Part shown: positions 4,540-62,867 of the stretch, piece after piece
Layout: each line of letters begins with the position of its first letter
Position numbering within the stretch: the stretch's first letter is position 1
DNA from: a virus
Lineage: Duplodnaviria; Caudoviricetes
DNA length: 64,000 bases
Reading direction: 5' to 3' (one strand)
IMG/VR virus record: IMGVR_UViG_3300037512_001928
Coordinates: 43,218 to 107,217 of that record
Notes under the pieces: generated by a model
Databases searched by the model: none
Told to the model about the DNA's origin: nothing
The model's input: the letters and a program-made list of their open reading frames with translations, nothing else
Made by a program: the position numbers and the translations under genes

Positions 4540-4842
4540 TCACTCCCAGCTATCGCATTTGCCGTCCTTCATGGTCAGATGTTTATCGCAGAAGTTTCGA
4601 TCCATCTCGGCGCAAACAAAATGGCGGCATGTATTACACGCCGCCGGACATTCCACAAGCTCGTAATCCCGGATCTCCTCCGGCGTCAGCTTCCTGTCGT
4701 ATAGAAGCCACGCCCACGCCGTGCGGTTAATCGCCGGAATCACGGTTTCGCCGTCGCACTCTTCCCACTCGATAAAGCCGCTCGGCTGACACCCCGGCCC
4801 CATCGGTCGCATGATCATGTAATAACCCCAGCGGTTACGCAT
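4540..4842 (-). CDS. DarA C-terminal-like domain protein (putative anti-restriction)
   Basis: YYMIMRPMGPGCQP...AWAWLLYDRKLTPEEIRDYEL. Confidence 0.55.
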   Translation of the reverse strand: MRNRWGYYMIMRPMGPGCQPSGFIEWEECDGETVIPAINRTAWAWLLYDRKLTPEEIRDYELVECPAACNTCRHFVCAEMDRNFCDKHLTMKDGKCDSWE

Positions 4843-5079
4843 TCTCCTGCTTCTCCTTCTCTTCCTCGGCTTTATGTTCCGCCTCGCCCTCTACGATCGA
4901 CTGCGACCACGCCGTCTCGTGAACAGCCCTGCCAAGCTCAATGAACTTCTCCATCAGCGAAACCATCCGCTTCTCCATCTGCCCGATCCGCCACCACGTC
5001 ATCCAGAAGCAGAAAATAACGATAATCTCCAGAATCAGCCCCATCGTTTCAGTCATCATGTGTAAATCCTCCTTATTTA

Positions 5080-25537: not shown

Positions 25538-26464
25538 ATGAACAAGTACCCGATGGTTGACTTCTACGGCGAGTCCCGCAGCGACACGGTTCTGGATTCT
25601 ACGGTCGGAACCACGGTCGAGATTCTGGAACGGATCTTCGATGCACTGACTGCCAACTACGGCGTTACGATCACAGCCCGGAGCATTGAGGGTCTGAACG
25701 GCGAGGTTCTGCAGCGCTGGGTGAACGGGTTTAAGAAAACCCATGCAGTAACGTCCGTCAACCTGTACATTTGCATTCTGAATCCGTTCCTGCGGTGGGC
25801 GCACACGATGACGTACGGCGATGGTGTGCCGTATCTCAAGGCGGAGCTTGGCGGAGTGCTGAAGACGATGAAGCTCCCGGATCCTGACAAGATTCCGGAG
25901 TGGGAACGTCCGAAGAGCAAGTACTATACGGAAGAAGAGGTCAGCACCCTGATGGATGTAAAGTACTCGCACAACAAGGTGCGGGACAAGGCGATCATCG
26001 CTCTGTTTCTCGGTTCCGGCATCCGTGTCAGCGAGCTGTGCAGTCTGACGCTTGGATCCATCCTTGACCGCCAGCGTGGGACGATTTACCTCCGCCGGAA
26101 GGGCGGTGTCTGGAAGGAAACGGAGGTTGCGGACTTCGCGTACGCCTACATCGATGAGTACCTGAAGACCCGCGACCTGAGCGATCACTCCGCTCCCCTC
26201 TTCCTGACCCGCGAAGGTCTGCCGTGTAACCGCAAGCAGATCTACAAGTCGCTGTCGCACATTCAGAAGCGGATGGACGTTGCGACTGGTCCCCATGCGC
26301 TACGCCATACGTTCGTGTCTGCCGCTGAAAAGGCGGGTGGCGGAGCTGTTGCCCGTGATCTCGCGAACCACAAGTCGATGACGATCACGAACCGGTACGA
26401 CCATTCCAACCGGGAACAGCGGATCGCGGCTGTGAACAGTCTTCCCTGGGCGATCAGCCGTTAA
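25538..26464 (+). CDS. Tyrosine recombinase 1 (XerC/D-like)
   Basis: GIRVSE, HALRH, LANH, NRY catalytic set. Confidence 0.9.
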   Translation: MNKYPMVDFYGESRSDTVLDSTVGTTVEILERIFDALTANYGVTITARSIEGLNGEVLQRWVNGFKKTHAVTSVNLYICILNPFLRWAHTMTYGDGVPYLKAELGGVLKTMKLPDPDKIPEWERPKSKYYTEEEVSTLMDVKYSHNKVRDKAIIALFLGSGIRVSELCSLTLGSILDRQRGTIYLRRKGGVWKETEVADFAYAYIDEYLKTRDLSDHSAPLFLTREGLPCNRKQIYKSLSHIQKRMDVATGPHALRHTFVSAAEKAGGGAVARDLANHKSMTITNRYDHSNREQRIAAVNSLPWAISR

Positions 26465-26562
26465 TCCCGACCTTGACAACTGAATAGCCAAACAAAAGCA
26501 CGATTATCACAAACACAGCAAGCGAAAGTCACACAAACTTTCCGCTTCTGTGTTTTTTATGT

Positions 26563-26593
26563 GCAACTTTTGGCGAAAAATGTTCTTTATATT
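26563..26593 (+). promoter_or_regulatory. Phage-specific promoter for the replication operon
   Basis: GCAAC-N13-TGTTCTTTAT, just after a terminator hairpin (26511-26558). Confidence 0.65.
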
Positions 26594-26632
26594 AATTGTA
26601 GGGTATTTTTAACTGACTATAAGGAGGTTCAG

Positions 26633-27640
26633 ATGGCTTTACAGATTAAAAAGGCAACCCGGAATGCTGTGTATGTCAAAATCGGTATGATGGGTATCTC
26701 CGGGAGCGGGAAAACTATGTCGGCGCTACTGATGGGCTACGGTTTGCTGAAAGCGGCGCATCCCAACCTGACGGACGAGCAGGTGTGGGAAAAAATCCTC
26801 GTCATTGACACGGAAAACGGCTCTGCAAGCCTGTATGCCGGGCTGACGGTCGGGTCTACGAGGATCGGCGAGTTCCTGACGATCGATGTGGAAGCTCCGT
26901 TCACGGTGGAGAAGTACATCGAGGCGATCAACGCCGCCGAAGCCAACGGTGTGGAGTTCCTGATTATCGATTCCATGTCCCATGCATGGCAGAGCGAGGG
27001 AGGGCTTCTCGACAAGCAGAACGCGGTGTCCCGGAGGATGAACGGGCAGACGTATCAGGCATGGCGTGAGATCACTCCACTGTACAATCAGCTGATCGAC
27101 AGGATTCTTCAGTGTAAGATGCATGTGGTCAGCACCTACCGTGGCAAAAAGGAATACGCACTGGAGGACGGGGACAACGGCAAGAAGAAGGTCACCGCGA
27201 AGGGGGTCGGCGCTCAGTTCCGCGAGGGCGCTGACTATGAGTCGACCGTCTACTTCGAGATTGCGCAGGATCATATGGCGTTTGCCAGTAAAGACCGTAC
27301 GCATCTCTTCGATGGGCAGTACTTCCTGATCAGCCCGGAAACCGGACGCCAGCTGTATGCGTGGCTCTCCTCTGCCGATCAGGCTCCGGCGCAGGTAGTC
27401 AAGGCTGTCGAGTCCGCGCCTGTCGTAGCTCCGGCTCCCGAACCGGACGAACCGAATGCAGAGCTTGCCAACGCGATTGCGATGGTGGATCGCATCATTA
27501 AGGAAAAGACCAAGGATATGACAGTCGAGGAAAAGGCGGAAGTTTCCAACCGGATCAAGGATATCTGCGGGAAGAAGAACTACAAGAATGTCACGGAGAT
27601 CGAGAAGCTCCGCGAACTGTACAAGGCTTTCGCGAATTAA
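26633..27640 (+). CDS. Sak4-like AAA ATPase (recombination)
   Basis: GISGSGKT, VIDTE, IIDSMSHAW; precedes ssb. Confidence 0.85.
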   Translation: MALQIKKATRNAVYVKIGMMGISGSGKTMSALLMGYGLLKAAHPNLTDEQVWEKILVIDTENGSASLYAGLTVGSTRIGEFLTIDVEAPFTVEKYIEAINAAEANGVEFLIIDSMSHAWQSEGGLLDKQNAVSRRMNGQTYQAWREITPLYNQLIDRILQCKMHVVSTYRGKKEYALEDGDNGKKKVTAKGVGAQFREGADYESTVYFEIAQDHMAFASKDRTHLFDGQYFLISPETGRQLYAWLSSADQAPAQVVKAVESAPVVAPAPEPDEPNAELANAIAMVDRIIKEKTKDMTVEEKAEVSNRIKDICGKKNYKNVTEIEKLRELYKAFAN

Positions 27641-39614: not shown

Positions 39615-41103
39615 TCTATGGATGATATCAAACTCTACGCAGTCCTGTTCGGTATATGTATCGGATGGCTGATCTGGTTATCTTTGGATGTGTACGATCT
39701 TCATGAAGAGATCAAAAAGCTGAAGAGGCGGTAACTCAATATGAGTGATGATTTTATAGTAATGTTTGCTATGGTTACAGGATCAATCATTGCTTTGGTA
39801 ACAATACTGCCAATGGTGATTGTACACCTTTAACACAGAAAGGATGATTGTATGAATCAACCACATATTCTTGTTGATATGAATGAAGCATCGTCTGTTG
39901 TAATGAAATTTATCGGAACTGATAAGTTTGATGAAGTCGTGTCAGCAGTAGAAAACAACGCAAAAGCAGGATTCACAGCAGGATTATCATTTGCTTTATG
40001 TTTGATTATGGCTGAAGCAAAAACATATCTCTATCACGTTGACAAACAGAAAGCAGAAGACACTTAAAGTGACCAATTAAGGAGAAACAGTATGAACGTA
40101 ATGTACGAACCGAAGAAAGTAACAGCTGTTTTACGAGTTGTTGTTACTGGTGAATTTTATGACGATGAAGCTTCTGAAGAAACACTTCGATATTGTGTAG
40201 AACAATACCTTGGAGATGCTGGATTTGATGTCGATGTATCTGTGTTAAGGTGACCGTTTGTGACGGAGGTGCGAAATGAAAAAATGCTGTGAATGCTGCG
40301 TCTGGGCGATAGATGAGAATGGCCTGCTTTTATGCGTATCATCCCCGAAAACCTTGCTTCATATTGTCAAGCACAAGAGCGGTTGGAAGAAGCGAAAACA
40401 TTAAAAAGTCCAGAGTTGGTTAAAATTTATACCGCGATAGTCAATAGGCTTTCAATACAGTTAAAAGCGTGAAACTTCGCAATATAAGCGGATTGTAGTG
40501 ACTTAAAGGAATTTTAACGCAGGATCTTGATCCGGCTTAAAGTAACCAATTACATAGGAGGAAAGTATGGATAAGATATTTGGATTTGAAAAGGCTGAAG
40601 ATATAGCCAAATATATAACAGAGCACGCCAGAGAAAATAATCTGCGCATTACTTTGACTGTAGAACCTGGGAGATATGAGGTGAGCGTAGAGCCGTGGGA
40701 AAATGTCGTTATGTACTGCCCATATCATCAAAAAGAGATTAAAGATTGCAAATAATTCGATGACGCTTTTAGTAAGGTGATGCCGAATGAATGAAAATCT
40801 TGAAAATCGTTTCATAAATTTGAAGGATGAAGCATTGAAGATAAATTGCTCCGATAATGAAACGGAGCATAGCGGATTGCATTGTATTGTATGCAATAAA
40901 AAATGTTATGATTTAATTTGTGATGAATGTAAACGAGCAATCAAATGGGCAAGATTACAAATGTATAAAGTTCAAAGAATTATAGTTAAAAATAATTAGA
41001 TAACAATTAGCAGTAACTAAATTCACAATAGGAGCATTTATGGAAGTGTCTGGATGATCTGGGTTAGCTGTGTAAAATGATGTAATAAAGCAGGAAAGGT
41101 AGG

Positions 41104-43210
41104 ATGACGATGCCTGACAGGGAGAAGGTTATCAAAGCACTTGAGTGCAGGAAAAACGCAGACAAGCGGTGCGAAAATCCATGCGAAGAAACAGGGATGT
41201 GCCATTACGCAACGGCAGTTCGTGACATAAACGGTGAAATTTATAGACCGTTTATCTGCGACAGGGAAAGAATCTGTACCGATGTCCTTGACCTGCTGAA
41301 AGAGCAGGAAGCGGTAAAACCTGTAAAACAGATAGAGCAAACTGAGTGGACAGTATGCGGTAATTGCCGTAATCACATTATCTCAAAATGGATATTCTGT
41401 CCGTATTGTGGAAGGTCGGTGAAGTGGGAATGAATAACGAAGAATGGTGCAAGAAGAATTGCCCATATAGTACGGATTGTGCTTGTGATGGAGTTTGTAA
41501 TTTCGTTTTATTTTTGCTGAAAGAACAGGAAGCGGTTGAACCTGATATTGATTCAGAAGGAACATGTACTTGCGGGAACTGCGGTGAAACAGTTGGATAC
41601 TATCCCGTTGGATGTAATACTCCGCAAAAATTATGCAAGTTTTGCCAAAATTGCGGAAAGGAGGTGAAGTGGAAATGCTGACAATTAGAAAAATAAAATA
41701 TAACTATAATACAGAATGCAATTCATGCGGAAAGGTAAGAAAACAGTATTACGAGATTTGCTATGGAATTCCTGTCCATGACTTTCCCTGGCAACCATAC
41801 TCTACTCTTCCGCTTTGCAGAACATGCCTTAGAAGATTGAGTGGAAGTATCGAAAAAAAATTATCGGTTTCAGACAGGCGGTGAAGTGGGATGGTTGAAA
41901 ATAAGTTCCCTGATGATTGCCCCGAAAATTGCCCGTATTTTCATAACGTTGGCTTATCTGATGAAGATCAATACTTCTTTTGCGACTTAATAGGAGTAGA
42001 AATACATGGATATACAGACCACTGTTTTTGTCCGATAAAAACAGTGGTAATATAGGTGGTGAAGTGGTATGCCTGACAGGGAAGCATTAGAACTTGTACA
42101 AAAATGTTTAGATGACTGGCCTTATGCGGCTACGAGAGTCGTGGACATTATGACCCGGCTTGAAAAGGTAAAGGAACTGCTGAAAGAGCAGGACAAAAGC
42201 CGTCTTGAAATAGCACATGAAATGGTAACAGGCTCGATTCTGATGTGTCAAGGCAAAGAAATAGTACGGTGCAAGGATTGCAAGCATAGACCGAAATTGT
42301 TAGTAACAGACATAGAAGATATGGAAAGCGGTTTTGATTTGCAGTTCCCGGACTATAAATGTCATTGCAGAAATGATGGTGATGGTTGGTACTCATGGTA
42401 TCCGCCAGACGATTGGTTCTGTGCTGACGGGGAACGCAAATGATTTAAAGGTCACCTTAACCGAATCGGGGGTGACTATGTGGACAGGGAGAAGGTTATC
42501 AGAGGGCTTGAGGAACTGTGCAAATACCTGTTTCATGAGTATGAAATATGCTATCACGGAGATCAAGAAGACATTTATAACAGGTTTTTGATTGCCGATA
42601 ATGCCCTTGCCCTGCTGAAAGAGCAGGAAGCGAAGACCGGAGCGTGGCAATGGAAGATTCATGGGAAACCGGAAAGCGGAGGCACGCTTGGAGAAGCGGT
42701 CTGCGATCAGTGCGGGGAATCAACGTATGCGACGGCAGTTAAGGGCACTTTAAATTATTGCCCGAACTGCGGAGCAAAGATGACGGACAGGCGGTGAAGT
42801 GGGAATGAAAGACCCGTATGAAGAGGTATGGAAGAATATCATAGAGTCATTCAACGCACAATCAAAGGCGATTTTATGGATTGCTGAACGGACTCTATCT
42901 GCGAAGGATTTTAAGGAGTTTGTAGATGAGTTCGCAAAAAAGCCAAAAGACGATCATGACGAACTGCTTGATTTTATACGCAAGAAAGGTTGGTGAAGTG
43001 GGAATGAGTTGGAGTATTCCATCAAAAGAAGAAGCTGAAGAGTATACTCGATCTTATCTTGCCGCACAGGAAGCCTATTACGAAGAACACATGGATGATT
43101 GTTGTGAGACATGCGATTTTTACGAATGCGGCAAATGCTATTTGGACATTGGCGAGCTTGTCGAAAAAGACTACAGTTGCAAATTCTATAGAAGGCAGTG
43201 AAATGAAATG
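41104..43210 (+). repeat. Mosaic gene cluster with repeated junction boxes
   Basis: GGTGAAGTGG..ATG x6, (C/T)TGCTGAAAGA(G/A)CAGGA x4, GACAGGGA start box x3. Confidence 0.85.
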
Positions 43211-44092
43211 AATGACAAGGAAATCATGGAGGATTATTACATGAAAAGCGTAGAAGAAGTCATTGAAGGTGAATCTAATGGATCAAGATTTAGCAGAAAA
43301 GATATATTGGATACTGATTGAAGAAGGACAGCACAATTTAAAATTTTCGCTTGGCAGTATAATCACAAATACACCGGATGAAGTAAGGAATATTATTCAA
43401 AAACACATCAAGGAACTAACTCAAAGTGACTAATAACCGTTTACCAAAGGTATATGGGGCTATGACATTAAAGGAATTATGGTGGGGGGGGGATACTGTG
43501 ACAACTTGGAAAGATGTGCGTGAAACGTTGGAAAAGTTGAAACAAGCGGTTGAAGAAATGCGGAAAGCAAGCAAAGCACTTTTGGAAGAAGTAAATAAAC
43601 CGTGGATAGTACGATAAATTAGTGTTAACGGAGGATGGCAGAATGACTGTGAAAGAACTAAAGGAAAAACTCGAAAATGTTCAAGATGATGCTAAAGTAA
43701 TGCTTATCGATATGGATAGTATTTGGCAGTCTGGGCGATATGACGTTGAAGATATTTGTATCGAAAACGAAGGGAAAACAGTATTGATCATGTAATTTAT
43801 TGTGATCTTTTGTTAGTGAAGGTCAGAATACACCGGCAACACATTTGCTCGTTTATTGTGGCAACAAGAATCACATGATGTTAGCTATCACAATATTTAT
43901 GAATGATTGTGCTTTCAAAGTTTAGATTAGCCAATAAGATAATTAAAAAAACGGACTAGGCTAAATATATTAAAATTATTGATTTTTAATGAATTACTGA
44001 AATTTAGCTATGGACAAATAAGAGAAAGTAGGTTATAGTGTGAAAGTCGGTTAGCCATTGATTTATTGGCGTAAATCCAGGAGGTTAATGAG

Positions 44093-44194
44093 ATGAGCCA
44101 GCCTGTAAATATACAATCAATTTCCATACGGAATTTCAAATCCCTCTTTGATGTCACGATCGAACCTGGGAATGTTAATGTGATCAAGAAATAA
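44093..44194 (+). pseudogene. 5' fragment of an ABC/AAA (OLD/SMC-like) ATPase gene
   Basis: IQSISIRNFKSLFDVTIEPGNVNVI, ending just before the expected Walker A. Confidence 0.7.
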
Positions 44195-44860
44195 AATGAC
44201 GCATTAAGTTAGAAGGAAAAGGAAGAAAACCACGGGCAACAGAATCAAAGAAAATGCGACCATGCGAGGTGAAACATGGAAAGAGAATGGAGCGTTGAAG
44301 AAGTCATTGAAGCACTTCAGACATGGGAAGAACCGTTCTATTCAGAATCAGAAACAAAGTGGCTAATGGAAAAAGCGGCTGAACTGTTGAAAGAGTATGA
44401 ACCACATGTTCTGTCATGGGAAGAAATGGTTGAAGCAGGAAAGAATCATGAAGCGGTATGGGTTGAAGAATATCCAAACACCGGAAGGAGAAACAGGTGG
44501 GCGATTGCCATTGAAGGAGTAGAGCCACCAGAACATGGGTATAATTATCCGGGTGGGGTGGCATTCAATGCCGTTGATGCCGATGATGATATTTTCGATG
44601 GTGATTTATATTGGTTTGATGGTGTTCTGAGTTGGAGGGCGTGGAATAAAAAGCCTACAGAAATGCAGATGAGGGCTGTGAAATGGGAGCAAAAGTGACC
44701 TATTTGAAAAATAATCTTACGACTATCTTTTAAAATCATGATGAACACCCTAAAAAACCATACTATGTCTTGTGTGCGATCTTTTGACCATCTTTTGTTT
44801 TTCTCCGATTTGCTGAGTATGGAGCAGCAGAAAGTGACCGTTAACGAAGGAGGTGATTGT

Positions 44861-45046
44861 ATGGCAAACATACTTCGGGAATGTTGTGGAACAAGACCAA
44901 ATGTCATAGTAGTAACGTATCTCGGAACCACATATGAGATGTTTGTTATCGAATGTCCAAAGTGTGGGATGAAAACGCAACCATATCGTAGACTTGACCG
45001 GGCATATAGTGAATGGAATCATCCTGAAGATGTGCATTTGAATTAA
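44861..45046 (+). CDS. Lar-like zinc-ribbon protein
   Basis: CCG..P...IECPKCG...AYSEWN. Confidence 0.45.
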   Translation: MANILRECCGTRPNVIVVTYLGTTYEMFVIECPKCGMKTQPYRRLDRAYSEWNHPEDVHLN

Positions 45047-46491
45047 TGTGACCATTAACGACCTAAATGCAAACGCTTGGAAATGCCGAATAACTCAATA
45101 ATTGGAGTGATTTAACGCATGAACAGATGGAAAGAATTGAAACCTGGTGACCCTGTGTTTGTAAGGAATGAGGTTAGACCGTACAGGGTTAAGTGCAGGG
45201 ATGAACGATTTATTATCTGCACAAAACCATTCAATCCGCAGCGAACCGTAATGTATTTTATCGTTGACCTTGAAAGGCATGTCAGAGGTACAGACAATAT
45301 GGTTTTCTGCTCCGGGTATGAAACACAGGAACAATGCGAAGAACGTCTGAAGGAACTACAAGAGGGTCTGATTGAGGTTTCGTATCGCAATTATGTCCCA
45401 TTAGACTAAAGTGACCAAGGAGTTATTATGACGAAAGAAGAAATCCTGAAAGAGATAAAAGAATATCTTGATGATGCGGATAAGGCTATTAGTGAAAATG
45501 AAGAGTATATCAGAGGATGGAAGTCTGCAATGCTTGTTGCGTTGGAGCTTGTCAGTAAATTAAAGTGACCATAAAAGGAGAAAACGAAAATGTACAACAG
45601 CGGGATCAATGAAGACATTCGGTATCGCGTGATTCTCTATAATGAACATGGTGAAATCATAGAAGATACAATGGTTATAGGGCAAGACAATGCCTATAAT
45701 TATGGAGAAAAACGAGCAATAGAGCTTGGAATGCGAAAAACAGATTTCAATGTAAAAGTTGATTAAATGTGACCAAGGAGAAATATAAAATGACAGTTAA
45801 AGAATTGATTCAAGAGCTTGAGAAATATCCGCAAGATTACACCGTCAAGGTGACGAGAGATGGAATCGCTGGAGATATTTATCCGGAAGATATTCACTAC
45901 GGATTGGACGAGAAAGAAAAAGAACTTGTACTTTAATGTGACCATTATCACGGGTGGCGGAATAGGTAAACGCAACTCTGTGGCAAAGAGTTTGATTATA
46001 CAAAGGTATGGAGGAAGCCGGGTACAGCGGATGAAAAGGATATATCTTCATAATGCAAACGAACCGCACAACACATGCTGTGACAACTGTATCTTCGCCC
46101 AGCCGACCAATATAGACGGGCTGATCATCTGTATGCTGGATGGATATTCGAAAGACGCAGATATGTCGTGCCATCATTTTGACGCATTGGATTAAGAATG
46201 ACAGATAATATGTTGTCCAATATTTACGTTTTCCGGCTTTTTAGATAACATATTATCCGTCGAAGGAGTTCTGTAATGATTAATGAAGTTGTATACTGTG
46301 CCGTCAACGATCGCGATGAAGTACAGTGGGTTCAGGGATCCAGCTCGAAGACGCGCTACTTTCGCACAGACCGATACCTGAAAAAGGCTGTCAGATATCA
46401 TAACACATTTCACGGCGATGATTACTGGCATATCGCGAAGTGTAACCTGGTCGAAGACGTCTACTACGAGGAATAAAATTTTTGTTTGAAC

Positions 46492-46523
46492 GCAACAAGA
46501 CTGTCAAAAATGTTCTATATATA
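46492..46523 (+). promoter_or_regulatory. Phage-specific promoter
   Basis: GCAAC-N14-TGTTCTATAT. Confidence 0.7.
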
Positions 46524-61416: not shown

Positions 61417-61631
61417 GTTACATCACCTCGGTAGATTCAATTATAAAATCCTGTCAAAGATTTTTGTGAAAAAACAGTAGATTTTGTACCAAAAATATGA
61501 TATAATCCGTAACTGAAAAGGCGTCGCGGGTACCAGCCGCAACGCCTTGGCGGAAGATGTGAGTCAGGCACACCATCCGGTAAGTGATTTTATCACATCC
61601 TTTCGCCGAAATCAAGAAAGGATGTGTTTTT

Positions 61632-62627
61632 ATGTCGTACGAAATCAAGATGTCCTTCCTGAAGGATCTGGAGCGCAGCCTGTCCGACAAGATCACCGTC
61701 AGCGCTTTGACTGATGTGATGTCTTCTGCTTCCGACATCCTTGAACATTACGAATTCTCAAGGATGCTCCGCATTGAAGACTCTTTCAGTCTGGATCTGT
61801 TGGATACTTGGCTTACTGCTATGAAGGTGGAAGGTCGAAGCCCAAAGACAATCCAGGCGTATTCCTACCTGATTAACCGTCTCCTCAATGATCTTCGTGT
61901 TCCGATCCGGAGTATTACGGTCTATCATCTTCGTAACTGGCTTACGAAAGAGAAGGCTCGCGGAATCTCTGACTGTACATTGAAAGGCAATCGCGAGGTC
62001 TTCAGTTCCATGTTTGGGTGGCTCTGGAGGGAAGGTCTGATCGAAAAGAACCCTGTCGCCAATATCGGCGCCATCAAAGTGCAGAAGAAGATCCGCGAAC
62101 CTTACGCGGATGTTGAACTTGAAAACCTGAAAAAAGCATGCGGACGTTCCAAGCTTCCGGATCGTGATATCGCCATTATCACCTTCCTGCTTGCTACAGG
62201 CTGTCGCGTCAGCGAGATGACGCAACTCAACCGGAATGATATCAATTTCATTGCTAAAGAAGTCACGGTTCTTGGAAAAGGAAATAAAGAGCGTGTTGTA
62301 TACTTCGATGGTGTTACGTCCATGTACCTCAAACGCTATCTGGATTCAAGACGCGATCTCTGTCCGGCGCTGTTCGCGAATTACCGTCTTGAACGCCTGA
62401 CTCAGAATGGTGTCCGGGCAATGCTGAACCGGATAGCACTGAACGCCGGTGTTGATCACGTCCATCCGCACAAGTTCCGCAGAACGCTGGCTACAATGCT
62501 GATCGCTCATGGCATGCCGATTCAGGAAGTCGCTGCGATCTTGGGCCACGAAAAACTGGACACGACCATGAAGTACGTTGTCTTGGACAAGACTCAGGTG
62601 AAAAACTCTTACATGAAATTCGCCTGA
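61632..62627 (+). CDS. Tyrosine recombinase 3 (XerD-like, N-terminal SAM-like domain)
   Basis: EGRSPKTI..Y, TGCRVSE, GKGNKER, HPHKFRRT, LGH, TTMKY; extended -10 TGATATAAT at 61498. Confidence 0.92.
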   Translation: MSYEIKMSFLKDLERSLSDKITVSALTDVMSSASDILEHYEFSRMLRIEDSFSLDLLDTWLTAMKVEGRSPKTIQAYSYLINRLLNDLRVPIRSITVYHLRNWLTKEKARGISDCTLKGNREVFSSMFGWLWREGLIEKNPVANIGAIKVQKKIREPYADVELENLKKACGRSKLPDRDIAIITFLLATGCRVSEMTQLNRNDINFIAKEVTVLGKGNKERVVYFDGVTSMYLKRYLDSRRDLCPALFANYRLERLTQNGVRAMLNRIALNAGVDHVHPHKFRRTLATMLIAHGMPIQEVAAILGHEKLDTTMKYVVLDKTQVKNSYMKFA

Positions 62628-62730: not shown

Positions 62731-62746
62731 TTAATGGTCACTTTAA
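62731..62746 (-). other. Perfect recombination-site candidate TTAA-AGTGACCA-TTAA
   Basis: Consensus of the 40-46 kb junction motif, about 100 bp downstream of recombinase 3. Confidence 0.7.
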
Positions 62747-62747
62747 G

Positions 62748-62867
62748 TTACAGGTTTTCTTCTCCAATCCGCTTTATTAAGCGTTTTCTGGCACGTTTCC
62801 ACCGCGCTTTTTTGTGAGTTTTGCGACCACGGAAATTGAGCTGATATCCCAACATATTAATTGTCAT
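62748..62867 (-). CDS. 39-aa basic peptide ending next to the recombination site
   Basis: AAGGAG RBS; MTINMLGYQLNFRGRKTHKKARWKRARKRLIKRIGEENL. Confidence 0.5.
   Translation of the reverse strand: MTINMLGYQLNFRGRKTHKKARWKRARKRLIKRIGEENL

What the first reader, a model, noticed from the sequence alone, without database searches (positions are those of the whole stretch)
43797..44207. Footprint of foreign DNA capture: an ATPase gene cut exactly at a site-like sequence
Seen: an AT-rich ~380-bp segment is bounded by the direct repeat TGTGATC in site context (43797 TTAT-TGTGATCT-TTTG; 44175 TTAA-TGTGATCA-AGAA). It carries non-coding DNA, an RBS and MSQPVNIQSISIRNFKSLFDVTIEPGNVNVI, whose V-N-V-I codons themselves form the right-hand site; the ORF ends two codons later. 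Known: I.I.NFKS....I.....NV(L/I)IG.NG.GK is the N-terminus of ABC/OLD/SMC-type ATPases, and tyrosine recombination requires identical overlaps and duplicates them on insertion. Inference: the recombinase excised non-phage DNA at fortuitous pseudo-sites and inserted it here, so the system may sample random DNA. 44701-44832, flanked by AGTGACC, may be a second such fragment. ATGACGC at 40760 and 44196 may bound a larger nested insertion.
Basis: partly seen in the sequence, partly recalled or inferred. Interest (0 to 1): 0.8.

Follow-up and report, generated by a model that had tools for sequence, protein, structure and literature searches.

The report
Host defence-gene stub in phage
A 107-kb rumen-type phage carries a dead stub (promoter plus first 31 codons) of a bacterial anti-phage defence ATPase gene, cut off where the phage's own gene-junction motif begins; this is a clear scar of foreign-DNA capture but not proof of a dedicated capture machine.

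Summary
The 33-codon ORF at 44093-44194 is the N-terminus of an AAA_15 ABC-type ATPase. Its full-length relatives (26/31 identical in the best one) are PDC-M31A, gene A of a two-gene candidate defence system of rumen and gut Clostridia. Homology also covers the bacterial promoter/leader (from about 43880) and ends at 44181-44186 in all 43 alignments, inside TGTGATC(A). The rest of the ATPase and PDC-M31B are absent from the phage.

The breakpoint lies on a sequence matching 9 of 10 bases of the phage's junction motif core, AAWGTGACCA (11 of 12 of its longest form). Eight of those bases (TTAATGTG) are the ATPase's own Asn-Val-Asn-Val codons. In related phage contigs, mosaic module boundaries fall at the same motif.

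The rest of the reading is not supported:
- The left TGTGATC is a weak motif match. The left edge cannot be placed more precisely than 43796-43880.
- No empty site or full-length version was found.
- The motif has no dyad symmetry, so it does not resemble a tyrosine-recombinase core.
- ATGACGC and TGTGATC occur at chance frequency.

Best reading: a remnant left by short-homology recombination at a phage boundary sequence. This scan has noted boundary motifs in other phages before.

The parts
43796..43879 (+). Left flank of unknown origin, between the stop codon of the 50-aa phage gene (TAA 43793-43795) and the first detectable bacterial homology. It contains the left TGTGATC (43801-43807).
   Evidence: No match to bacterial loci, relatives or the rest of the phage. 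The left copy matches the motif core AAWGTGACCA in 7/10 positions.
43880..44092 (+). Promoter/leader of a PDC-M31 operon. It has TTAGCYA boxes at 43881, 43927, 44004 and 44051, an inverted GGCTAA at 43959-43964, a -35 TGGACA at 44011-44016, a -10 TATAGT at 44034-44039 and an RBS GGAGG at 44080-44084.
   Evidence: Collinear homology to the regions upstream of the bacterial genes, from -213/-166/-134 to the start codon. The boxes and the -35/-10 positions are conserved in alignment A1. Promoter scan scores 10/12.
44093..44194 (+). 33-codon ORF. Codons 1-31 (44093-44185) are the N-terminus of a PDC-M31A / AAA_15 ATPase. Codons 32-33 and the stop are junction sequence.
44175..44186 (+). Breakpoint. 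TTAATGTGATCA matches the longest form of the junction motif, TTAATGTGACCA, in 11/12 positions. TTAATGTG is native ATPase coding sequence (Val-Asn-Val codons).
   Evidence: All 43 alignments end at 44181-44186. Homologues read GTTAATGTG-TTT/CTG-ATT-GG. Motif consensus.
44187..44275 (+). Phage-side spacer. It looks like a decayed gene junction, with a second motif-like TAAAATGACGCATTAA at 44192-44207 and a 3-codon ATGACGCATTAA. It is followed by the RBS and start of the 140-aa gene at 44276.
   Evidence: 44176-44201 aligns to the junctions at 45764 (4/500 shuffles reach the score) and 45406 (9/500). No match to bacterial loci.
44691..44839 (+). Two true motif copies (AAAGTGACC at 44691-44699 and 44830-44838) around 130 nt of non-coding DNA.
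   Evidence: No homology, no Rfam match and no fold signal (z=0.23).

Best explanation
The 480-bp gap between two small early genes of this phage contains a non-functional remnant of bacterial (or mobile-element) DNA. The remnant comprises the promoter/operator leader and the first 31 codons of a PDC-M31A gene. PDC-M31A is the AAA_15 ABC-type ATPase of a two-gene candidate anti-phage defence system that is patchily present in rumen and gut Lachnospiraceae and other Clostridia.

Shown:
- The identity of the remnant.
- That the remainder of the system is missing from the phage.
- That homology ends within GTGATC(A) at 44181-44186.

Inferred:
- The join, or the deletion that removed the rest of the system, formed by short-homology recombination. 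The partners were the ATPase's own TTAATGTG(A) (its Asn-Val-Asn-Val codons) and a copy of the phage junction motif (T)AAWGTGACCA.
- That motif sits between stop codon and RBS of many early genes. In related phages it marks where gene modules are exchanged.
- No dedicated site-specific enzyme is required. A microhomology join or annealing by the phage's Sak4-like recombinase would be enough.
- The order of events is open: either the whole operon was captured and then deleted, or an already truncated piece was captured.
- The 33-aa peptide lacks the P-loop and is most likely inert.
- The conserved sigma-70-type promoter points into the downstream phage genes with no terminator in between, so it may now serve them.
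For: - Identity: P0030 and L022:5001-6188 match PDC-M31A at E about 1e-150 over the full length; the next bacterial gene is PDC-M31B, E=8e-93.
- Homology to the leader.
- Rest of the system absent from the 107-kb phage.
- Sharp common end of homology at 44181-44186.
- TAAWGTG occurs only 0.42 times per 2.25-kb PDC-M31 locus, so a random break would seldom land on one.
- The sequence after the break resembles other phage junctions.
- The motif clusters: 8 of 13 plus-strand [AT]GTGACC copies in the genome lie within 40068-45937.
- Consensus and position relative to the RBS.
- In relatives, 93-94% identical modules stop at the motif.
- Distant relatives pack the 140-aa gene's homologue 4-12 nt after the gene before it.
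- Three independent assemblies keep the same 480-nt gap, so this is not a misassembly.
- The phage encodes a Sak4-type AAA_24 protein. Phage single-strand annealing proteins, Sak4 among them, recombine short and diverged sequences (PMC5499656).
Against: - The nearest donor DNA (the contig encoding P0030) could not be read. The donor's exact sequence at the break, and the left edge of the insert, are therefore unknown.
- Only one such scar was found, so a preference for the motif rests on this case plus four module boundaries in relatives.
- The two flanking copies share the unusual T (GTGATC, not GTGACC). Chance gives that exact word in the left 95 nt only 0.8% of the time, which a site-specific insertion model would explain more naturally.
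- Promoter activity and lack of function of the peptide are not tested.
Confidence: 0.55

Rival explanations
1. A phage tyrosine recombinase recognises the junction motif, excised a circle of non-phage DNA at two fortuitous pseudo-sites (TGTGATC) and inserted it at a phage site. That duplicated the overlap, so the early region would be an integron-like array able to sample foreign DNA.
For: - The break lies on a motif-like sequence.
- Both flanks carry the same variant, GTGATC, and the exact word is rare by chance (0.8%).
- The reconstructed empty site resembles the junction at 45764.
- Module boundaries in relatives lie at the 3' edge of GTGAC.
- All motif copies point the same way.
- Two tyrosine recombinases are encoded, and a perfect TTAAAGTGACCATTAA lies about 100 nt downstream of one of them.
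Against: - The motif has no dyad symmetry, and only an 11-nt asymmetric core is conserved.
- The junctions are 18-27 nt with no attC-like hairpin.
- The left copy matches the core in only 7/10 positions, and the left edge of homology is unresolved.
- The recombinase genes are about 17-18 kb from the array.
- No empty site was found.
Confidence: 0.12
2. The stub is kept because it is useful. One possibility is that it counters the host's PDC-M31 system, by titrating a regulator on the TTAGCYA boxes or through a dominant-negative N-terminal peptide. Another is that the captured promoter now drives the downstream early genes.
For: - The promoter hexamers, TTAGCYA boxes, RBS and reading frame are all intact and aligned with the bacterial versions.
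- The stub has the same orientation as the phage genes, with no terminator before 44276.
- Three assemblies keep a gap of the same length.
Against: - The three assemblies are near-identical, so they say nothing about selection.
- A 31-residue piece without the P-loop is unlikely to fold.
- No other phage with such a stub was found.
- Similar dead stubs occur in bacterial genomes as plain decay.
Confidence: 0.1
3. The break has nothing to do with the junction motif. A random illegitimate join or deletion happened to fall on Asn-Val-Asn-Val codons that resemble the motif.
For: - There is only one case.
- The ATPase contributes TTAATGTG through its own conserved coding sequence.
- GTGATC is not the motif's GTGACC.
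Against: - A random break would land within a few bases of a TAAWGTG word in well under 1% of positions.
- The sequence after the break matches other junctions (4/500 and 9/500 shuffles).
- Module boundaries in relatives fall at the motif.
Confidence: 0.15

Closest known systems
PDC-M31 (PADLOC 'phage defence candidate' system; gene A is an AAA_15/AAA_21 ABC-type ATPase, gene B has no known fold)
   Same: The stub and its leader are homologous to gene A and its promoter region. The best full-length relative is 26/31 identical, and full-length relatives match the PDC-M31A model end to end.
   Different: Only 31 codons remain. There is no Walker A, no remainder of gene A and no gene B anywhere in the phage. 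I found no paper on PDC-M31, and its defence role is a database prediction.
Boundary or 'linker' sequences at mosaic joints of phage genomes, and the PeSL cassettes of T4-type phages (Arbiol et al. 2010, PMC2839356; Comeau et al. 2014, PMC4122927)
   Same: A short conserved sequence recurs between small non-essential early genes. Insertions, deletions and replacements between relatives have their ends at it.
   Different: PeSLs are a strong promoter plus a terminator stem-loop. This motif is an 11-nt core with no hairpin or promoter, lying between stop codon and RBS. Here one partner was non-phage DNA that offered only 8-9 nt of identity.
Integron gene cassettes and attC sites
   Same: An array of small genes in one orientation, separated by a recurring element, with a foreign fragment bounded on at least one side by that element.
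   Different: There is no attC-type imperfect palindrome, no adjacent IntI-type integrase with attI and Pc, and no demonstrated excision or insertion.
Morons (independent promoter-gene-terminator units inserted between phage genes)
   Same: Foreign, AT-rich DNA with its own sigma-70-type promoter sits between two phage genes.
   Different: The gene is truncated to 31 codons and no terminator is present.

Membership tests
PDC-M31A / Pfam AAA_15 ATPase | N-terminal strand motif (I.I.NFKS...V.F.PG.NV.IG) at the very start of the protein | tested here: met
   Residues 7-31 match profile positions 2-26 of PDC-M31A, E=3.4e-5. 26/31 identical to P0030. E=1.1e-11 in the search of the phage's own genome.
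PDC-M31A / Pfam AAA_15 ATPase | Walker A (GxNGSGKS/T) and the rest of the ABC ATPase fold, about 390-410 aa | tested here: not met
   The ORF stops 2 codons after the break. No other match to P0030 in the 107-kb genome. It is a fragment, not a member protein.
PDC-M31 system | Gene B directly downstream of gene A | tested here: not met
   The bacterial locus L022 has PDC-M31B (E=8e-93). Nothing in the phage at E<=10.
Tyrosine-recombinase core site (Xer/Cre/integron type) | Two inverted recombinase-binding arms around a 6-8-bp overlap | tested here: not met
   In 16 copies only (T)AAWGTGACCA is conserved. The positions to its right are variable.
Tyrosine-recombinase core site (Xer/Cre/integron type) | Recombination at the site by a cognate recombinase | not testable with these tools
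   Two Phage_integrase genes exist.
Integron cassette array | attC hairpins and an adjacent IntI with attI and Pc | tested here: not met
   The junctions are 18-27 nt with no hairpin. The recombinase genes are about 17-18 kb away.
Phage mosaic boundary sequences | A short conserved sequence at gene junctions where homology between related phages starts or stops | tested here: met
   Homology between the window and L089/L090/L091 stops at 43618 and starts at 43432, both at motif copies. Two module edges between L089 and L090 also lie at the motif.
PeSL regulatory cassette | Early promoter plus terminator stem-loop | tested here: not met
   The motif has no promoter-like or hairpin part.

The most novel reading that the evidence does not exclude
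The (T)AAWGTGACCA junctions are the working sites of a phage-encoded cassette-exchange system, using one of the two tyrosine recombinases or an unknown enzyme that cuts at the 3' edge of GTGAC. That system can also act on look-alike sequences in host DNA. On this reading the PDC-M31A stub would be the first caught instance of a phage 'integron' sampling a host defence locus.
Probability: 0.12. Interest if true: 0.85.

Novelty: new member of a known kind. Interest (0 to 1): 0.45.

Why it matters
The scar gives a base-pair-resolved example of how a phage of uncultured rumen Clostridia took in host or mobile-element DNA. The crossover sits on the phage's own inter-gene boundary motif, which supports that motif as a preferred exchange point for the accessory early genes. 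The captured DNA comes from a candidate anti-phage defence operon, so phage and defence island have exchanged DNA directly, and the stub hints at the phage's host range. The comparison also exposes a conserved box array upstream of PDC-M31 operons that may be their operator. If the site-specific reading were right, it would be a new kind of gene-capture device in phages. The present evidence favours the ordinary mechanism.

Tried and rejected
- Pfam, NCBIfam and PDB sequence searches with the 33-aa peptide found nothing.
- blastn of 43000-45500 against the phage collection gave no match. tblastn of the peptide gave one weak hit.
- The 140-aa neighbour has no relatives in IMG/VR. It has only 72%-identical partial ones in JGI metagenomes, with different flanks.
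- Relatives found through the RNA ligase (L002-L009) do not share the small-gene region.
- The viral contig L012, which carries a full-length PDC-M31A, is unrelated to this phage.
- Exact-pattern scans of IMG/VR for the left flank, the predicted empty site and the actual junction all gave 0.
- DNA of the three near-identical contigs and of the P0030 contig was not available.
- Rfam found no family in 43000-46500, and there are no tRNAs.
- RNA folds of 43796-44092 (z=-0.85) and 44699-44835 (z=0.23) are unremarkable.
- A frameshift, an intron or a split gene is rejected, because no further ATPase sequence exists in the phage.
- Misassembly is rejected, because three other assemblies have the same gene spacing.
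- ATGACGC as the bounds of a 'nested insertion' is rejected, because the word occurs at chance frequency.

Full report
**Setting.** The window is bases 43218-107217 of a 107,217-bp IMG/VR virus record judged about 94% complete. The region 38.9-46.5 kb is a run of small plus-strand genes, and it is more AT-rich than the neighbouring genes beyond about 46.5 kb. The finding lies in a 480-bp gap between a 50-aa gene (43643-43795) and a 140-aa gene (44276-44698).

**The observation.**
- The sequence reads as described.
- The 33-codon ORF (44093-44194) has a GGAGG 9 nt upstream of its start.
- It also has a promoter-like TGGACA-17-TATAGT at 44011-44039.
- Pfam, NCBIfam and PDB sequence searches are blind to so short a peptide.
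- PADLOC models of eight ABC/OLD-type ATPases all align residues 5-31 to their own first 26-30 positions. The best is PDC-M31A at E=3.4e-5.
- An exhaustive phmmer search of 1.84 billion representatives returned five ATPase N-termini, 61-73% identical over residues 1-31. They continue with IGANGSGK, the Walker A motif.
- Using one of these to reach full-length proteins gave a large family of 392-412-aa AAA_15 ATPases. The member P0030 is 26/31 identical to the phage peptide.

**What the donor family is.**
- P0030 and the Lachnospiraceae homologue L022:5001-6188 match PADLOC's PDC-M31A from end to end (E about 1e-150).
- The gene that follows in L022 is PDC-M31B (E=8e-93).
- Fifty-seven loci in rumen and gut Clostridia carry the ATPase. 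They are mostly Lachnospiraceae, Butyrivibrio and Anaerovoracaceae, with one Flexilinea-labelled MAG contig.
- In a sample of 401 genomes of the family of L022, 11 have it. That patchiness is typical of defence genes.
- I found no paper on PDC-M31, so its defence role remains a database prediction.

**Extent of the foreign block.**
- Nucleotide homology between the phage and the bacterial loci is collinear.
- It starts 134-213 nt upstream of the start codon (43880-43959, depending on the locus) and ends at 44181 (27 loci), 44182 (11) or 44186 (5).
- Alignment A1 shows that the phage copy keeps the bacterial -35 and -10 positions and the RBS.
- It also keeps a set of TTAGCYA/GGCTAA boxes that recur upstream of the bacterial genes.
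- Beyond about -200 the bacterial loci no longer resemble one another. The left edge of the insert can therefore only be placed between 43796 and 43880.
- After the break the phage reads ATC AAG AAA TAA, where the homologues read TTT/CTG ATT GGN GCN AAT GG.
- The rest of the ATPase and PDC-M31B are absent from the whole phage.
- This rules out a frameshift, an intron or a split gene.
- Three other assemblies that encode identical flanking proteins have the same 480-nt spacing. The structure is therefore not an assembly artefact, though their DNA could not be read.

**The 'site'.**
Eight of the 13 plus-strand [AT]GTGACC words in the genome lie in 40068-45937.
- Sixteen copies from the window and two related contigs give the consensus (T)AAWGTGACCA. 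All lie on the coding strand.
- It usually overlaps a stop codon. In 12 of 16 copies an RBS follows 8-19 nt on and a start codon 18-28 nt on.
- The supposed right TTAA arm is not conserved, so the element has no dyad symmetry.
- The right-hand sequence of the finding (AATGTGATCA) matches the core in 9/10 positions. The left-hand one (ATTGTGATCT) matches in only 7/10, which is common by chance.
- The eight bases TTAATGTG are the ATPase's own codons (GTT AAT GTG), as in several bacterial homologues.
- The bases after the break (ATCAAGAAATAAAATGACG) align with the junctions at 45764 and 45406. Only 4 and 9 of 500 shuffles reach those scores.
- The join therefore looks like a crossover within 8-9 nt shared by the ATPase gene and a phage junction.
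- TAAWGTG occurs only 0.42 times per 2.25-kb PDC-M31 locus. A random break would seldom fall on one.

**Support from relatives.**
- Contigs L089, L090 and L091-L093 carry a piece 93-94% identical to the 3' part of the 63-aa gene (43432/43492-43618) in otherwise unrelated surroundings.
- Identity stops just after the stop codon, exactly where L089 and L090 have AAAGTGAC and the window has a degenerate version.
- It begins in L091 directly after the window's AAAGTGACT.
- L089 and L090 share two modules. One edge of each lies at the motif: the left edge of the first and the right edge of the second.
- L089 and L090 each have four further copies at gene junctions.
- The motif therefore marks exchange points in this phage group. 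It behaves like the boundary sequences of mosaic phages and the PeSL cassettes of T4-type phages (PMC2839356, PMC4122927), though it has neither a promoter nor a hairpin.
- More distant relatives lack the motif. They pack the 140-aa gene's homologue 4-12 nt after the preceding gene.

**Mechanism.** The evidence shows a scar of foreign DNA whose 3' end is at a junction motif. It does not show how the join was made.
- Against a tyrosine recombinase:
  - The motif has no symmetry.
  - There is no attC-like structure.
  - The two integrase-family genes (25538-26464 and 61584-62627) are about 17-18 kb away.
  - The left site is weak.
- In its favour:
  - Both flanks share the unusual GTGATC. The exact word appears in the left 95 nt in only 0.8% of shuffles, but any 7-mer shared with the break region appears in 11.5%, and the segment holds 17 repeated 7-mers.
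  - A perfect TTAAAGTGACCATTAA lies on the minus strand about 100 nt downstream of the XerD-like gene.
  - The module edges seen all lie at the 3' side of GTGAC.
- The ordinary alternative:
  - The phage also encodes a Sak4-type AAA_24 protein.
  - Phage single-strand annealing recombinases, Sak4 among them, recombine short and diverged sequences (PMC5499656).
- I therefore favour short-homology recombination at a boundary sequence (0.55) over dedicated site-specific capture (0.12).

**Other claims.**
- TGTGATC (15 seen against 13.4 expected) and ATGACGC (8 on the plus strand and 10 on the minus) occur at chance frequency.
- The ATGACGC at 44196 does lie in a sequence (TAAAATGACGCATTAA) that resembles the motif. 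A similar ATGACGCTTT...TAAGGTGA junction occurs at 40757 and in L089, so it may be a second junction type rather than the bound of a nested insertion.
- The 130 nt between the two true motif copies at 44691 and 44830 match nothing and do not fold better than shuffles. They may be an emptied slot, but there is no evidence that they are foreign.

**Function.**
- A 31-residue N-terminal piece without the P-loop is unlikely to act.
- Similar dead stubs of this gene occur in bacterial contigs.
- The intact promoter points into the phage genes with no terminator in between, so it may have been co-opted.
- A decoy role against PDC-M31 cannot be excluded and has no support.

**Verdict.**
- The thing is a well-resolved horizontal-transfer scar at a phage boundary motif.
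- It is a new member of a known kind.
- Earlier notes of this scan describe the same motif array in this genome (e1-5844811, e1-5844802) and comparable boundary motifs in other phages (e1-3443191, e1-427149, e1-3778123).

Noticed in passing
window 40064-45948; L089 3480-4632; L090 77-1526: The junction motif has the consensus (T)AAWGTGACCA on the coding strand, usually 8-19 nt before an RBS. It is shared by related phage contigs from other samples. Its strand bias and fixed place before the RBS would also fit an RNA-level role, such as a processing or translational operator site.
   Followed up: partly
window 43432-43618; L089 3996-4121; L090 809-935; L091 3087-3271: A 126-187-bp module (the 3' part of a 63-aa gene) is 93-94% identical in five contigs whose flanks are unrelated. 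Identity starts or stops at motif copies.
   Followed up: yes
window 43881-44057; L022 about 4800-5000 and other bacterial loci (alignment A1): A conserved array of TTAGCYA/GGCTAA boxes lies around the promoter of PDC-M31 operons in many Clostridia. It is a candidate operator for an unknown regulator.
   Followed up: partly
window 62731-62748 (minus strand), downstream of 61584-62627: A perfect TTAAAGTGACCATTAA lies about 100 nt after the XerD-like tyrosine recombinase gene and its terminator-like hairpin, near the end of the record. It could be part of attP or a regulatory site.
   Followed up: partly
window 40757-40783; 44192-44207; L089 3868-3895: A second recurring junction sequence (ATGACGC-TTT..TAAGGTGA) lies between a stop codon and the next start. 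The copy at 44192 is degenerate.
   Followed up: no
window 26561-27640: An AAA_24 (Sak4-type) protein, a likely single-strand annealing recombinase, lies next to the second tyrosine recombinase (25538-26464).
   Followed up: no
L094 27-173; L095 4001-5212: Bacterial contigs hold decayed PDC-M31A-like genes. One is a 48-aa stub followed by unrelated genes. The other is a gene split 43 aa + 346 aa in a defence island with GmrSD and an EcoRI-type methylase.
   Followed up: no
window 43643-43795, 45790-45936, 45428-45568: Several small early genes are paralogues that start MTVKEL or MTKEEI. The early array has therefore grown partly by duplication together with its junctions.
   Followed up: no
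window 43796-43804 and 43852-43860: A 9-nt direct repeat, TTTATTGTG, lies inside the unassigned left flank. It overlaps the start of the left TGTGATC copy by 4 nt.
   Followed up: no
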